Origin: Actinomycetota bacterium
GTDB lineage: Bacteria > Actinomycetota > Acidimicrobiia > Acidimicrobiales > Ilumatobacteraceae
Length of the DNA stretch: 37,589 nucleotides
Assembly: GCA_038529675.1 (NCBI GenBank)
Contig: JBCBDK010000001.1
Coordinates: 1 to 37,589 of the forward strand
Direction: 5' to 3'
Under the pieces are notes generated by a model. That model ran no database searches. It had not been told where the DNA came from and saw nothing but the letters and a program-made list of their open reading frames with translations. The position numbers and the translations under genes were made by a program. Shown one piece after another: positions 14,976 through 37,589 of this stretch (position 1 is its first letter; every line of letters begins with the position of its first letter).

Positions 14976-16508
14976 TCACGTGCGCGCACGGACGACGAGA
15001 CGACCGGACTCGACCGTCGCCGTCAGTGCCACGCCGTCCCCGATGGCGAGCGGGGCGTCGCCAGGCAACCGCCAACGTTCGGCGCCGTCCAGCCCGATGG
15101 CGATTCGTTCCGTGCCACCGACCGACGGCCGCTTGAGCACGATCCCGTCGGCGGTCGCCGTGTACTCGTCGACCGAGGCTGCGATCGGCGCCAACTCTGC
15201 GATCGTCCGACCCGTGTCGGCGTCGACGGCCTGTTGGCGCCGGCCCTCGAGATCGCTGACGAGCAACGTCGCGCCGCGGTCGCTCGGTGTCGACCCGAGC
15301 AGGACGCCGTCGCGTCGCCACTCGATGACGAGGGTCGGTTCGCGCCCCACCGAGCCGACACCGCCCTCGTCGTCGCGCACTCGGAGCCGGGCCCCGATGA
15401 ACTCCGTGCCGACGCGCAGGACGAACCGCCCCGGCGCGACCTCATCGGCGCGCAGGATGTCGTCGGGTTCCGCATCGAGTCGAGCGGCCAGCTCGACCGC
15501 CGCGGCGATCGACGCCACGACTGCGGCCGACCGCGCGATCTCGAGGGCCTCGTCCGGCGGCCGGGTACCGACCTCGGGCACCGCCACGCTCGTCGCGTCC
15601 ATCTCGACCTGCCCGGACCCGAGCGGCACCGACGCCCCCGTCCGGACGTCGACGAGCACGTCGTCGGCACTGCGCTCCCGCCGGATCCGCAGAACCACGG
15701 CCTCGTCGGTCCGACCGACGATGTCGATCCGCCGGCTGTCGGGAACCACCTCGCGCCAGGCCAACTCGCCATCGTCGACACCGAATGCGGCGACGACCGA
15801 CCCGCCGTCGGTCGATCGAGCGGTGACGACGGCGGTCCCGGCGACGACCTCGATCTGGGGCCGGTGGCCGTCGTCGAACGTCGTGTCGACGATCGATCTC
15901 ATCCACCGGACCGTGTCGATCGACGTCGGAAGCCGCGGGAGACGTGCCAGCGCGAGCTCGTCGACGACCGGCGCCGTGCGACCCGGGGCGACGCGCAGAT
16001 CGGCGCCGCCACCCATCCCACCGACCCGCAGGCCGGCCTCGATCGGCGGCACGGTCAGGATCGTGGTCGTCCCGTCGGTGGACAGGTCCGCCGGGGCGTC
16101 CGCCCCGGCATCGATCGGTGCCGCTGGACGCGCGGGCGGCAAGGTCACGAGGATCGTCGGACGGGGCGCCGCCGACTCGGCCGACCGAACGTCGGGGTCT
16201 GCGGTCTCCGATTCCGTGCCACCACCTGCCGCGAGCACGAATGCGCCCCCGGCGAACGCAACGACCGCGACGCTCGGTACGACGGCCCGGCGCCAACCTC
16301 TCCGGCCGGGGGCCGGCACGACGTCGTCGGCACGTGAGTCCCACATCTCCCATCCGGGCCCGACCGCGACGCCCTCCGGGTGAGCGGCGTCGCGGTCAGA
16401 CCGATCGGCGGTCTCGCGCTGTTCACGCTGTTCACGCCAGACGATCGGCGCGGTCGCGCCCTCCGGCCGCTCGGTGCCCGCGGCCACGGAGCGTCGGCGG
16501 CTGGCCAT
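14976..16508 (-). CDS. Membrane-anchored PQQ-like beta-propeller repeat protein (paralog-like to neighbour)
   Basis: TM segment AVVPSVAVVAFAGGAFVLAA; repeats AFGVDDGELAW, VDVRTGA, AVDADTGR, AIGLDGAERW. Confidence 0.65.
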   Translation of the reverse strand: MASRRRSVAAGTERPEGATAPIVWREQREQRETADRSDRDAAHPEGVAVGPGWEMWDSRADDVVPAPGRRGWRRAVVPSVAVVAFAGGAFVLAAGGGTESETADPDVRSAESAAPRPTILVTLPPARPAAPIDAGADAPADLSTDGTTTILTVPPIEAGLRVGGMGGGADLRVAPGRTAPVVDELALARLPRLPTSIDTVRWMRSIVDTTFDDGHRPQIEVVAGTAVVTARSTDGGSVVAAFGVDDGELAWREVVPDSRRIDIVGRTDEAVVLRIRRERSADDVLVDVRTGASVPLGSGQVEMDATSVAVPEVGTRPPDEALEIARSAAVVASIAAAVELAARLDAEPDDILRADEVAPGRFVLRVGTEFIGARLRVRDDEGGVGSVGREPTLVIEWRRDGVLLGSTPSDRGATLLVSDLEGRRQQAVDADTGRTIAELAPIAASVDEYTATADGIVLKRPSVGGTERIAIGLDGAERWRLPGDAPLAIGDGVALTATVESGRLVVRART

Positions 16509-24315: not shown

Positions 24316-25275
24316 GTGACCGACACGTTCGCGACGGAGACGTTCGCGACCCGCTACCAACACTTCTCACGCGATGAGTGGGCCGTGCTGCGCGCCGCCA
24401 CCCCGATGACGCTGCGGGGGCCCGAGCTCGATCGGCTGCGCGGCATCAACGAGCGCATCGACCTCGACGAGGTCGCCGCGGTCTACCTCCCGCTGTCGCG
24501 GCTGCTCAACCTGTACGTCAACGCCACCCAGGACCTCCACAAGGTGAGTGCGACGTTCCTCGGGTCGATCTCGCCGAAGGTGCCGTACGTCATCGGCGTC
24601 GCCGGCTCGGTCGCGGTCGGCAAGAGCACGTTCGCCCGCATCCTCCAGACGCTGCTGGCGCAATGGCCGGATCATCCGAAGGTCGACCTGATCACGACCG
24701 ACGGCTTCCTCCACCCGAACGCCGTCCTCGACGAGCGGGGGCTGATGGCCCGAAAAGGGTTCCCCGAGTCGTACGACACACGTGAGCTCGTGCGAGTGCT
24801 CCGTGAGATCAAGAGCGGCGCGCCACGCGTGGAGGCACCGGTGTACAGCCACGTGGTGTACGACATCGTCCCCGACGAACGTGTGGTCGTCGAGCAGCCC
24901 GACATCGTGATCCTCGAGGGGCTCAACGTGCTCCAGACCGGTCCGTCGACCGGCGAGGGCGCGGCGACCGAGTTCGTCAGCGACTACTTCGACTTCTCGA
25001 TCTACGTCGATGCCCACGTCACCGACATCGAGCAGTGGTACGTCGAGCGGTTCCTGACGCTGCGCGAATCCGTGTTCCAGGATCCGGACAGCTTCTTCCG
25101 CAACTACGCCGACCTGACGGACGACGAGGCCGTGGACACCGCCCGCACGATCTGGCGCGAGATCAACGGGCGGAACCTCGTGGAGAACATCGAGCCGACG
25201 CGCGAGCGAGCGTCGTTGATCCTCCGCAAGCGCAAAGACCACCGCGTCGAACGCGTCAGCCTCCGACGGCTCTGA
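24316..25275 (+). CDS. coaA: Type I pantothenate kinase
   Basis: [67 protein letters not shown] 8 nt before GTG 24316. Confidence 0.97.
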
Positions 25276-31386: not shown

Positions 31387-31460
31387 CGCCGCGACCCTAC
31401 GAGATCCACGCGAACGCCCGTCCGCTCGCGCAGCCCTTCGCCGACGCGAGACTGGTGTCG

Positions 31461-32231
31461 ATGGGCGATCCGCGAGAAGGCCTCGAGCCGGACGGGACGA
31501 TCCGAACCGGTGCCAGCGCCGAACGGATCGCCGACCGCTATCGAGCGCTCGTGGCGTCCACGATCGAAGCCGTCCTCGCGGCTGCGCCGGCCGCGTCCGT
31601 CTACGCCTACGGGTCGGTGACGACGGGACAGGCCGAGAGCCCCCGGTCCGACGTCGATGTCCTGACCATCGGGCTCGATCCGTCGATCGCCCGCGAGATC
31701 GCGCTCGATGCCTCCACGCGGTTCTCCCACCTCTGCCGAGGCGTCGAGATCGCCGCGGGAGCGCCCGGCGACTTCGTCGGCGACACGAGCGAGTCGTACG
31801 GCGCACAGGTGTTTCTCCACCACTATTGCATCCACCTCACCGGCCCTGACCTCGACCGCGCAGTGACCGGCTTCGCGGGCGATCGGCGCGCAGCGCGAGG
31901 TTTCAACGGCGACATCGGGCGGCACGCCGAGCGCTGGCGACGATCACTCGGCGAGGTCGATCCGGGCGACCTCGGCCGCCGCATCGCGCGCAAGACGCTG
32001 CTTGCGTGCGCCGGGCTCGTCAGCGTGCACGACGGCACATGGACGACGGATCGCCGGCGCTCCGCACGGCGATGGAGCGAGATCCACCCGGGCCTCCGTG
32101 CCGGGCTCACCCAACTGCTCGAGTTGGCCGACGGCGCCGCCCGCCCGTCCCGAGCCGAAGTCACTGCGAACCTCGACGACGTCGTCGACGTGATCGCTCA
32201 GCAGTTCGCCGACGAGATCGGGCTGTGGTGA
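31461..32231 (+). CDS. Pol-beta-superfamily nucleotidyltransferase domain protein
   Basis: VYAYGSV...SDVDVL (hG[S]x9-13DhD motif), followed by a helical C-terminal region. Confidence 0.8.
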   Translation: MGDPREGLEPDGTIRTGASAERIADRYRALVASTIEAVLAAAPAASVYAYGSVTTGQAESPRSDVDVLTIGLDPSIAREIALDASTRFSHLCRGVEIAAGAPGDFVGDTSESYGAQVFLHHYCIHLTGPDLDRAVTGFAGDRRAARGFNGDIGRHAERWRRSLGEVDPGDLGRRIARKTLLACAGLVSVHDGTWTTDRRRSARRWSEIHPGLRAGLTQLLELADGAARPSRAEVTANLDDVVDVIAQQFADEIGLW

Positions 32232-36557: not shown

Positions 36558-36905
36558 TCAACCGCCCTTGACGACGTGCTCGACGACGTCGAACGACATC
36601 AGCGCCGCGTCCTGCGCGACCGGGCGGCGGGCCTGTCCTCCGTCGCCATCATCGTTGCCGTCGGCCTGACCCGAGGCATGCCCGCGCTCGAAGTCCTGGC
36701 TCGACATCCAGTGCTGGAACGCCTCCTCCGAGGCCCACCTCGTGTAGACGAAGTACCGGGACTCACCCTCGGTCGGGCGCAGGAGCTGGAAGTCCTCGAA
36801 CCCGTCGAACTGCTCGACCATCTTCGCTCGACCCGCGAATCGAGCCTCGAGCTGGTCGCCCATCCCCTCGGGGATGGTGATGGCGTTGATCTTCACGATG
36901 CTCAT
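36558..36905 (-). CDS. mhuD: ABM-family heme-degrading monooxygenase, MhuD/IsdG-like
   Basis: MSIVKINAI... closely resembles mycobacterial MhuD, with Asn7, Arg26, Trp66 and His76 at the equivalent positions. CAGACT 6 nt before ATG 36905. Confidence 0.75.
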   Translation of the reverse strand: MSIVKINAITIPEGMGDQLEARFAGRAKMVEQFDGFEDFQLLRPTEGESRYFVYTRWASEEAFQHWMSSQDFERGHASGQADGNDDGDGGQARRPVAQDAALMSFDVVEHVVKGG

Positions 36906-37041
36906 CCACGCAGTCTGGACCTGCGCGGCGATCGTGCCCACACCGACCTCGCTCGACGCGAGAAGCTGCCATCGCGACCGGCACTTCCGTTGATTCAGCA
37001 AGAATCTCTCCGTGCGGGTAGCACCACGCTACGTGGTCAGG

Positions 37042-37047
37042 TACGGT
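37042..37047 (+). promoter_or_regulatory. Candidate sigma-A -10 element of the structured RNA
   Basis: TACGGT 6 nt upstream of the first hairpin. The palindrome ACCACG-CTA-CGTGGT lies at 37023-37037. Confidence 0.5.
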
Positions 37048-37053
37048 AGGTGT

Positions 37054-37400
37054 TGGGCGACGGCGGACAAGACCGCTCGCCCAGGGTGGAACGAAATGAG
37101 GGCGACAAACGGGGGGACGACTGGCGACGTATCAGGGCGCACCGCTTCACGTCACGTGGCATCAACTGCAGCGCAGTCAACGGCGCCACGGCGGGGTGCC
37201 GGTTCCCACGGACCGAAGCTCGACCACGCTACCCGACCGTTCCTAGATCTCCCGGCCACTGCGCCGGGGCTGTTCGGCGAATCGAAGAACGTGCCGTATC
37301 CGCCGACGGCACACGACCCGAGCGACCACGCCAGTCGTCTCCGAGGTCCTTCGATCCGCTGACGCCGTGCTCGGCCCCTTCCGCCGGGGTCGAGCACGGC
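37054..37400 (+). ncRNA. Candidate large structured non-coding RNA (~350 nt; Ms1/6S-like overall architecture, family unassigned)
   Basis: 5' hairpin 37054-37083; 14-bp long-range stem 37113-37126 with 37329-37342; at least four internal hairpins; 15-bp 3' hairpin 37364-37400. Mismatches resolve as G:U on the + strand. No credible ORF. Confidence 0.6.
37364..37400 (+). terminator. Strong terminator-like hairpin
   Basis: GCCGTGCTCGGCCCC-TTCCGCC-GGGGTCGAGCACGGC (15 bp, one G:U), followed by ACATT with no long U-tract. Confidence 0.6.
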
Positions 37401-37505
37401 ACATTCGCCACGTGCCCGACGCTGGCCGACGCGCGAGCGGAGGTTGCGCAGGTGGGCGCCGGATCACCCTCGCCTGCTTCCCACCAGCGATAGCCTCAGG
37501 TCCCC

Positions 37506-37589
37506 GTGGGTCTCATCGTCCAGAAGTACGGCGGCACGTCGGTGGCCGACCCCGACCGCATCAAGGCAGTGGCGGACAACGTCGCCATC
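37506..37589 (+). CDS. ask: Aspartate kinase, N-terminus (partial)
   Basis: GTG start; MGLIVQKYGGTSVADPDRIKAVADNVAI is the aspartokinase signature; TAGCCT at 37491-37496. Confidence 0.93.
   Translation, partial: MGLIVQKYGGTSVADPDRIKAVADNVAI

What the first reader, a model, noticed from the sequence alone, without database searches (positions are those of the whole stretch)
37023..37405. Unannotated ~350-nt highly structured RNA gene candidate between the mhuD-like gene and aspartate kinase
Seen: this is the largest intergenic gap in the window (600 bp), and it is organised like an RNA gene. (1) A -10 box TACGGT (37042-47) sits 6 nt before a 5' hairpin TGGGCGA..GCGG-ACAAGA-CCGC..TCGCCCA (37054-83). 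(2) A long-range stem GGGGACGACTGGCG (37113-26) / CGCCAGTCGTCTCC (37329-42) is extendable by GAGGGC/GTCCTT. (3) Inside it lie a long bulged hairpin (GCACC..CGTGGC..ACTGC-AGC-GCAGT..GCCACG..GGTGC, 37138-37199) and stems CCCGGC/GCCGGG, CGTTC/GAACG and GTGCCGT/ACGGCAC. (4) A 15-bp hairpin closes the 3' end. G:U pairs in the main stems favour the + strand. GACCACGC recurs at 37222 and 37324. Established: actinobacterial Ms1 RNA (~300 nt, binds RNA polymerase core) has terminal hairpins around a long closing stem. Inference: this is a divergent Ms1/6S-like RNA or a new ncRNA class. It is more branched than expected for Ms1 and lacks the HAD-hydrolase neighbour of mycobacterial Ms1. A cis-acting attenuator for ask is the alternative, although ask seems to have its own -10.
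Basis: partly seen in the sequence, partly recalled or inferred. Interest (0 to 1): 0.85.

Follow-up and report, generated by a model that had tools for sequence, protein, structure and literature searches.

The report
Clade-restricted small RNA unit, not Ms1

Summary
The named stems and the -10 box are in the sequence. The region is non-coding by a codon model, single-copy, and matches no Rfam family. TACGGT is a common -10 hexamer in this genome. The folding signal comes from the two end hairpins: z -3.3 overall, -0.26 without the 3' hairpin. No homolog was found in 36 congeneric genomes or in family samples. Synteny gave one in two near-identical metagenome loci (L094, L159; score 238 vs 121±15). 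There TACGGT, a UCCGCC-loop hairpin and the 3' hairpin (also UCCGCC loop) are kept, with 4 compensatory and 0 broken pairs. The 14-bp closing stem and inner branches are not kept, and the middle diverges about as fast as synonymous sites. L094/L159 and sister locus L093 share a short hydrophobic ORF here (0 of 1000 controls); the window no longer encodes it. Verdict: likely a ~350-nt promoter-to-terminator unit derived from a small membrane-peptide gene, not Ms1/6S and not an ask attenuator. A C-rich-loop sRNA role remains possible. No RNA data were available.

The parts
37042..37047 (+). -10 hexamer TACGGT; predicted start about 37054-56
   Evidence: 66 of 409 genome copies lie 4-10 nt before a start codon; spacing of TANNNT hexamers peaks at 6-8 nt. 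One of only two TANNNT on the + strand of the spacer; also present in L094/L159.
37054..37083 (+). 5' hairpin
   Evidence: z -4.2, 0 of 200 shuffles; a weaker counterpart in L094 (z -1.55, 15 of 200). Register of the 5' alignment is ambiguous.
37085..37098 (+). SD-like GGTGGA and ATG; ATG context ATGA(G/A)GGCGAC is shared with the small-ORF start of L094
   Evidence: SD predicted paired (unpaired probability 0.1 or less).
37096..37362 (+). 88-codon open frame from that ATG, stopping just before the 3' hairpin; not hydrophobic, not gene-like; likely remnant of a small membrane-peptide gene
   Evidence: Codon score -0.38. Best 17-aa hydropathy on the window's + frames is at most 1.1 vs 2.0-2.2 in L094/L093. 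No protein similarity to the L094/L093 peptide.
37113..37126 (+). 5' arm of the 14-bp long-range stem (private to this genome)
   Evidence: not found in L094.
37138..37269 (+). interior with predicted but unsupported hairpins (bulged hairpin 37138-99, hairpin 37250-69)
   Evidence: z -0.43 for 37138-99. 83 of 179 aligned columns identical to L094, against 36-65% identity at fourfold-degenerate sites of flanking genes.
37291..37312 (+). hairpin with C-rich loop (A)UCCGCCG
   Evidence: Kept in L094/L159: 1 compensatory, 1 one-sided change, loop 7 of 8 identical. Loop predicted unpaired.
37329..37342 (+). 3' arm of the 14-bp long-range stem (private to this genome)
37364..37400 (+). 15-bp hairpin with UCCGCC loop; likely U-poor intrinsic terminator
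   Evidence: z -6.5. 3 compensatory, 1 one-sided, 0 broken pairs vs L094/L159. 111 of 119 strong post-stop hairpins in this genome lack a U-tract.
37491..37496 (+). ask's own -10 (TAGCCT), 9 nt before the GTG at 37506
   Evidence: A similar TANNNT a few nt before the ask GTG is seen in the congeneric loci printed.
36558..36905 (-). flanking ABM-family (MhuD-like) gene, inverted relative to the commonest layout
   Evidence: PF03992. Tandem with ask in 76, divergent in 14 of 110 loci (11 without ask, 9 without the gene).
37506..37589 (+). 5' end of aspartate kinase gene (cut by contig end)
   Evidence: 82-100% identity over the first 26-28 aa to TIGR00656 hits in 30 congeneric loci.

Best explanation
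The element is likely a short, separately transcribed unit (predicted start about 37055, end about 37400) that descends from a small membrane-peptide gene private to one narrow clade, and in this genome it no longer encodes that peptide. Shown: the clade (window, L093, L094, L159) has the ABM gene divergent from ask, with a 350-600 bp spacer; L093 and L094/L159 carry a related short hydrophobic ORF there; the window's DNA is homologous to the L094/L159 spacer but lacks the hydrophobic peptide; TACGGT and two hairpins are shared. Inferred mechanism: housekeeping RNA polymerase starts at the TACGGT promoter; the leader folds a 5' hairpin; the ancestral message was translated from the ATG at 37096 into a signal/anchor peptide; the strong 3' hairpin ends the transcript and insulates the leaderless ask promoter from read-through. 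Selection on termination would keep that hairpin after coding was lost. The 14-bp long-range stem and the multi-branch interior would be private, mostly chance pairing in 69% G+C sequence.
For: End-to-end homology with L094: global score 238 vs 121±15, maximum 172 of 200 shuffles. Monophyly of the four loci on the ABM gene tree, support 100/98 (bootstrap not fully settled). L093/L094 peptide similarity score 48, reached by 0 of 1000 random genome windows in both directions; 9 of 20 residues identical, 4 of them through synonymous codon changes. All 3 L094-L159 differences in the spacer are third-position synonymous changes in that frame. Window peptide signal absent: 879 and 509 of 1000 controls score as well; frameshift-tolerant score 49 vs 43±7, 14 of 60 controls as high. 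Folding signal confined to end hairpins in both window and L094 (z -0.26 and +0.25 without the 3' hairpin), unlike Ms1 controls (-1.7 to -3.8 without theirs). Linker 28 of 47 and interior 83 of 179 identical, i.e. not above synonymous-site identity of 36-65%. Strong U-poor hairpins after stops are usual here (111 of 119). The ABM-ask interval often holds other small inserted ORFs (L026, L031, L035).
Against: Only two effectively independent sequences carry the hairpins (L094 and L159 differ at 3 spacer positions). The window is longer than L094 (347 vs 271 nt), which simple decay would not predict. The second UCCGCC hairpin and both loop sequences (13 of 15 identical) are kept, which a bare terminator does not need. 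The L094 ORF reads through its own 3' hairpin and the L093 ORF runs into ask, so neither looks like an intact gene; their codon scores are weak (-0.23, +0.06). BLASTP alone does not align the two peptides, and no further protein homologs were found. The 5' alignment register is ambiguous (MAFFT shifts it by 55 nt).
Confidence: 0.55

Rival explanations
1. A genuine trans-acting sRNA, or a dual-function RNA, whose working part is the 3' domain: two hairpins display single-stranded UCCGCC loops that would pair with G-rich ribosome-binding regions of target mRNAs, in the manner of 6C RNA. The small ORF is an optional 5' module lost in this lineage.
For: Both loops carry the same hexamer, are predicted unpaired in window and L094 and are 13 of 15 identical. 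Stems show 4 compensatory changes, 9 of 500 shuffles. This is the only TCCGCC twin-hairpin in the genome. C-rich loops of 6C bind mRNAs without chaperones (PMC6486639, abstract). UCCGCC is one base from the anti-SD motif UCCUCC (recalled).
Against: Twin-loop hairpins turn up for 8 of the 29 permuted control hexamers. TCCGCC loops also occur in two ordinary post-gene hairpins. L093, the window's nearest locus on the tree, lacks both hairpins. Not found in 36 congeneric or 150 family genomes with model R2 apart from one weak hit, L234, whose stems are broken. No 6C match in the genome.
Confidence: 0.22
2. A type I toxin-like message: a hydrophobic peptide ORF whose ribosome-binding site is shut by 5'-3' fold-back pairing and controlled by an antisense RNA, now inactivated in this genome.
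For: Hydrophobic small ORF in sister loci. In the window the SD is predicted paired to the segment just before the 3' hairpin. A TAGCGT -10 hexamer on the minus strand at 37226-31 would give an antisense RNA over the start region.
Against: The fold-back pairing and the minus-strand hexamer are not present in L094/L159. The sister ORFs are 93 and more than 100 codons with no stop near the hydrophobic segment. Single copy; no paralog in the genome. One literature search for such systems in actinobacteria listed nothing.
Confidence: 0.1
3. A divergent Ms1/6S-like RNA that mimics an open promoter and binds RNA polymerase.
For: Predicted outline for 37054-37400 is 5' hairpin, long closing helix with an A-rich bulge, 3' hairpin. 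Length is similar to Ms1. A 12-nt word at about 37205-16 also occurs in the S. coelicolor Ms1 printed. Distant Ms1 genes are known to escape BLAST and Rfam (PMC9130861, passages).
Against: The closing stem, the most conserved part of Ms1 (PMC4191392, passage), is missing in the homolog, as is the 12-nt word. Alignment scores to four Ms1 genes are 85-116 vs shuffles 91-94±10. No HAD hydrolase neighbour; 19 congeneric HAD-IB loci show no similar sequence downstream. Present in one small clade only.
Confidence: 0.05
4. A cis-acting attenuator or riboswitch leader for ask.
For: Same strand, directly upstream, ends in a terminator-like hairpin 105 nt before the ask start.
Against: ask has its own -10 9 nt before its GTG, as in relatives. 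None of 30 congeneric ask upstream regions matches the element. No lysine-riboswitch or T-box match. No Lys/Thr/Met-rich leader peptide among the ORFs listed.
Confidence: 0.03
5. No discrete transcript: spacer DNA with two promoters' worth of sequence and a bidirectional hairpin, the rest chance.
For: Core z-scores are near zero. Strong hairpins are common (260 in the genome).
Against: A TACGGT upstream plus compensated hairpins downstream, in the same order in the homolog.
Confidence: 0.05

Closest known systems
Ms1 RNA (Rfam RF02566; scr3559 in Streptomyces)
   Same: About 300-350 nt, own promoter and terminator-like end, actinobacterial host, predicted short hairpins at both ends in this genome.
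   Different: No sequence or model match; no HAD-IB synteny; closing stem and bubble not conserved in the homolog; clade-restricted.
6C RNA (Rfam RF01066)
   Same: Two hairpins with C-rich single-stranded loops in an actinobacterium.
   Different: Loops are UCCGCC rather than C runs; the hairpins are about 50 nt apart and the second is the likely terminator; no RF01066 match; part of a longer unit with a small-ORF region.
Small membrane-protein genes with U-poor (I-shaped) intrinsic terminators; small-gene remnants
   Same: Promoter, SD/ATG, short hydrophobic ORF in sister loci, strong hairpin without U-tract; the interval hosts other small inserted ORFs.
   Different: No protein family found for the peptide; an extra conserved C-rich-loop hairpin; coding signal lost in this genome.
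Dual-function RNAs such as staphylococcal RNAIII, and type I toxin mRNAs such as hok or aapA (recalled, not tested)
   Same: Small hydrophobic ORF in the 5' half with structured 3' half; C-rich loops (RNAIII); predicted SD occlusion by the 3' end (type I toxins).
   Different: Analogy only; no homology tested; fold-back and antisense promoter not conserved here.

Membership tests
Ms1 RNA | Match to RF02566 or similarity to known Ms1 genes | tested here: not met
   (only an unrelated 40-nt hit on C269).
Ms1 RNA | Long hairpin with central bubble conserved among homologs | tested here: not met
   Predicted in the window but the stem is absent in L094; model R1 finds no full match in L093/L094/L159 (at most 11.2 bits).
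Ms1 RNA | Short hairpins at both ends | tested here: met
   the 5' one is weak in L094.
Ms1 RNA | Synteny with HAD-IB hydrolase gene | tested here: not met
   Neighbours are an ABM gene and ask; HAD-IB loci of the genus checked.
Ms1 RNA | Binds sigma-free RNA polymerase core; abundant in stationary phase | not testable with these tools
   No RNA holder listed.
6S RNA | Match to RF00013; ~180-200-nt rod with central bubble | tested here: not met
6C RNA | Match to RF01066 | tested here: not met
6C RNA | Two stem-loops with conserved C-rich loops | tested here: inconclusive
   Two UCCGCC loops kept in two independent sequences; not C-run loops; lost in L093.
Type I toxin-antitoxin mRNA | Short hydrophobic peptide ORF | tested here: not met
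   Absent in the window; present in sister loci L093, L094, L159.
Type I toxin-antitoxin mRNA | Conserved antisense RNA and SD-occluding fold | tested here: not met
   Minus-strand -10 hexamers and fold-back are private to the window.
Riboswitch / attenuator of ask | Leader conserved upstream of ask; ask transcribed through it | tested here: not met
Retron ncRNA | Adjacent reverse transcriptase gene; conserved a1/a2 repeats | tested here: not met
   No PF00078 match in the genome (83% complete); long stem not conserved.
RNase P RNA / tmRNA | Family match | tested here: not met
   Both genes lie elsewhere in the genome.
Intrinsic terminator (U-poor type) | Strong G+C hairpin at the end of a transcription unit, conserved as structure | tested here: met
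   termination itself not tested; the U-tract scan found none.

The most novel reading that the evidence does not exclude
A young regulatory RNA caught emerging from a small membrane-peptide gene: the 5' ORF is being lost in some lineages while a 3' pair of UCCGCC-loop hairpins is kept and acts as a chaperone-independent, SD-targeting sRNA, a new RNA class not found in Rfam.
Probability: 0.2. Interest if true: 0.6.

Novelty: new member of a known kind. Interest (0 to 1): 0.27.

Why it matters
On the best reading this is ordinary: a lineage-specific small-gene remnant with a good promoter and terminator. It shows how terminal hairpins in 69% G+C DNA can make a spacer look like a large structured RNA. 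It does not supply an Ms1/6S-type RNA for this group. If the UCCGCC loops are functional, the three versions (window: RNA parts only; L093: peptide only; L094/L159: both) would be a compact natural case for studying how an sRNA arises from an mRNA.

Tried and rejected
Rfam scans of the region, the window and L093/L094/L159: no real match. DNA search of 60 relatives and 400 family genomes: only short hits; the two family hits and the best genus hits were inspected and lie in coding DNA or do not extend. Phage and plasmid BLAST: none, and one 26-nt chance hit. Long-stem pattern: 0 in viral contigs, 6 in genome contigs, all 6 unrelated and within or over coding DNA. The element's 147-codon frame as query: nothing in viral or metagenome contigs. 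Single-sequence model R1 over 37 genus genomes: best non-self hit 21.6 bits vs 327.7; the four best alignments are patchy. Model R2. Twin-loop pattern: 0 of 400 other order genomes; one viral hit inside a coding gene. Ms1 lead from a 12-nt word shared with scr3559: not kept in L094, treated as chance. Retron idea: no RT. Remnant of a neighbouring gene (DUF899-like, or the small ORF of L026): no signal above shuffles. Peptide homolog searches: none; genus hits were generic signal peptides or noise, 7 of 25 loci read. Sequencing runs: no RNA holder listed; the one DNA holder may be the source of this genome and matches without differences, so it is not independent. The sigma-70 promoter and U-tract terminator scan found nothing, unsurprising for -10-only promoters and U-poor hairpins. 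Earlier-findings look-ups returned nothing. The literature search for small RNAs in this group listed nothing relevant.

Full report
Observation. All named features are at the stated coordinates. A hexamer codon model trained on this genome gives seven ORFs or ORF parts in the element scores of -0.33 to -0.68, against +0.41 to +0.72 for the flanking genes. The element is single-copy and has no Rfam match. The genome has its tmRNA and RNase P RNA elsewhere, and no Ms1, 6S, 6C or reverse transcriptase match (83% complete). The host shares a phylum with genomes carrying Ms1 and comes from a marine metagenome; no call named its genus or class.

Folding. The + strand folds better than shuffles (z -2.66; -3.27 for 37054-37400, below all 69 control windows folded out of 268). 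With those ends the predicted outline is 5' hairpin, long closing helix, 3' hairpin. The signal is carried by the end hairpins: without the 3' hairpin z is -0.26, and the long bulged hairpin alone gives -0.43. Four real Ms1 genes keep z -1.7 to -3.8 without their 3' hairpin. The 14-bp stem is matched by 2 of 300 shuffles and 7 of 300 genome windows.

Promoter and terminator. Among 657 of 2896 called genes with a TANNNT 4-10 nt before a start codon, TACGGT ranks third (66), and spacing peaks at 6-8 nt. It is one of two TANNNT hexamers on the + strand of the spacer; the other is ask's own TAGCCT at 37491. Of 119 genes followed by a hairpin of at least 12 bp, only 8 have four or more T in the tail, so a U-poor hairpin is the usual post-gene form here. 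I-shaped hairpins are a described terminator class (PMC8355165, passage); a reference title in that paper reports that mycobacterial polymerase needs a U-tract, so termination at this hairpin is inferred, not shown.

Distribution. In 30 congeneric ask loci the ABM gene is tandem with ask in 20, divergent in 1 and outside the locus in 9; none matches the element. DNA and covariance-model searches of the genus (36 other genomes), the family (400 by DNA, 150 by model) and the order (400 by pattern) found no homolog; these are samples of partly incomplete genomes. The 80 best metagenome loci for the ABM protein (of 439) included 13 with the divergent layout. The three closest, L159, L093 and L094, form a clade with the window (100/98; 81 rows, loci under 76% identity or lacking the gene start left out; bootstrap not fully settled).

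The homolog. L094 and L159 differ at 3 spacer positions, so they count nearly as one. Their spacer aligns end to end with the window (238 vs 121±15; segments: 5' part 3 of 500 shuffles, middle 22 of 500, the two 3' parts 0 of 500). Shared in order: TACGGT, a weaker 5' hairpin, ATGA(G/A)GGCGAC, a hairpin with a UCCGCCG loop, and the 3' hairpin with a UCCGCC loop. MAFFT places the 5' part in another register, 55 nt off, so that part is less sure. Over the two 3' hairpins 4 pairs change on both sides, 2 on one side and none break (9 of 500 shuffles); the structure was drawn from these sequences, so the slid controls are lenient. The 14-bp stem has no counterpart: L094's longest long-range helix is 8 bp of other sequence, and model R1 scores at most 11.2 bits on these loci. 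Identity is 13 of 15 in the loops, 28 of 47 in the linker and 83 of 179 in the interior, against 36-65% at fourfold-degenerate sites of the flanking genes. Constraint is therefore visible only at the hairpins and perhaps the promoter.

The small ORF. L094/L159 and L093 each have an ATG-started frame with a 17-residue hydrophobic stretch (hydropathy 2.0-2.2). The two peptides score 48 against each other, above all 1000 random genome windows, with 4 synonymous codon changes among 9 identical residues, although BLASTP with composition adjustment does not align them. The three L094-L159 differences are synonymous in this frame. In the window the matching ATG (37096) opens an 88-codon frame that stops just before the 3' hairpin but is neither hydrophobic nor gene-like, and no frame resembles the peptide above chance. 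L093 lacks the 3' hairpins and its frame runs into ask; the L094 frame reads through its hairpin. No further homolog of the peptide was found. Each lineage thus holds a different subset of one ancestral unit, which I read as a young, unstable locus.

Mechanism. Most likely (0.55): a promoter-to-terminator unit derived from a small membrane-peptide gene, with coding lost here and the terminator kept, plausibly because it shields the leaderless ask promoter. Transcription, termination and shielding are inferred. The best rival (0.22) is an sRNA acting through its two UCCGCC loops, as 6C does through C-rich loops (PMC6486639, abstract and outline only). Against it, twin-loop hairpins arise for 8 of 29 permuted hexamers and TCCGCC loops cap two ordinary hairpins elsewhere. 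A type I toxin-like message (0.10), an Ms1/6S-like RNA (0.05), no transcript (0.05) and an ask attenuator (0.03) are less likely.

Comparison with Ms1. Ms1 homologs share a long hairpin with a central bubble, and that part is the most conserved (PMC4191392, passages). They usually sit beside a HAD-IB hydrolase, and distant ones can lack detectable similarity (PMC9130861: passages, one part of the text, part 1 of 9 of its supplement and one term search in it; neither text nor supplement mentions Acidimicrobiia or Ilumatobacter). Lack of similarity alone would therefore not exclude Ms1, but loss of the closing stem in the nearest homolog, the missing synteny and the narrow range do argue against it.

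Verdict. Real sequence features and probably a real short transcript, but not the large conserved structured RNA proposed. Interest 0.27; new member of a known kind. The novel case, an sRNA arising from a small-ORF gene, has probability about 0.2.

Noticed in passing
window 37026-37031, 37043-37048 and 37226-37231 (minus strand): Three of the genome's two commonest -10 hexamers (TAGCGT twice, TACCGT once) lie on the minus strand of the spacer; the 10-nt direct repeat at 37023/37223 is the two TAGCGT sites. They could drive a leadered ABM-gene transcript and an antisense RNA over the element's 5' half. None is present in L093, L094 or L159.
   Followed up: partly
window 36558-36905 and 110 related loci: The ABM gene switches between tandem and divergent orientation relative to ask several times on its tree (7 changes, at least 3 forced by well-supported branches), and the interval takes up various small genes.
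   Followed up: partly
L026 (G004), about 90-320 nt upstream of ask: A 78-codon ORF with a transmembrane-like stretch and its own TACCGT hexamer sits between the ABM gene and ask; no clear homology to the element.
   Followed up: partly
G000 genome-wide, e.g. C3:17123-17182; spacers of L018, L022, L033, L116: Abundant REP-like palindromes with GTCAGAC/GTCTGAC cores, and a second palindrome type with GTGAGGTT/GTGAACTC ends, in intergenic DNA.
   Followed up: no
G000 genome-wide: About 23% of called genes (657 of 2896) have a TANNNT 4-10 nt before a start codon, i.e. probable leaderless transcription; the ABM gene uses a CANNNT variant in many relatives.
   Followed up: partly
HAD-IB hydrolase loci L053-L071: In 19 congeneric genomes the best HAD-IB gene is usually followed closely by another gene, leaving little room for an Ms1; no Ms1 or 6S was found in G000 either, so this genus may lack both or hide them elsewhere.
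   Followed up: partly
window 14976-16508 (-), 24367-25242 (-), 31455-32231 (+): Long ORFs without Pfam match; the first and last score weakly coding, the middle one does not.
   Followed up: no
G000 C528 about 1150-2000: Sequence that by eye resembles an RHS/YD-repeat protein gene; seen while checking a chance hit.
   Followed up: no
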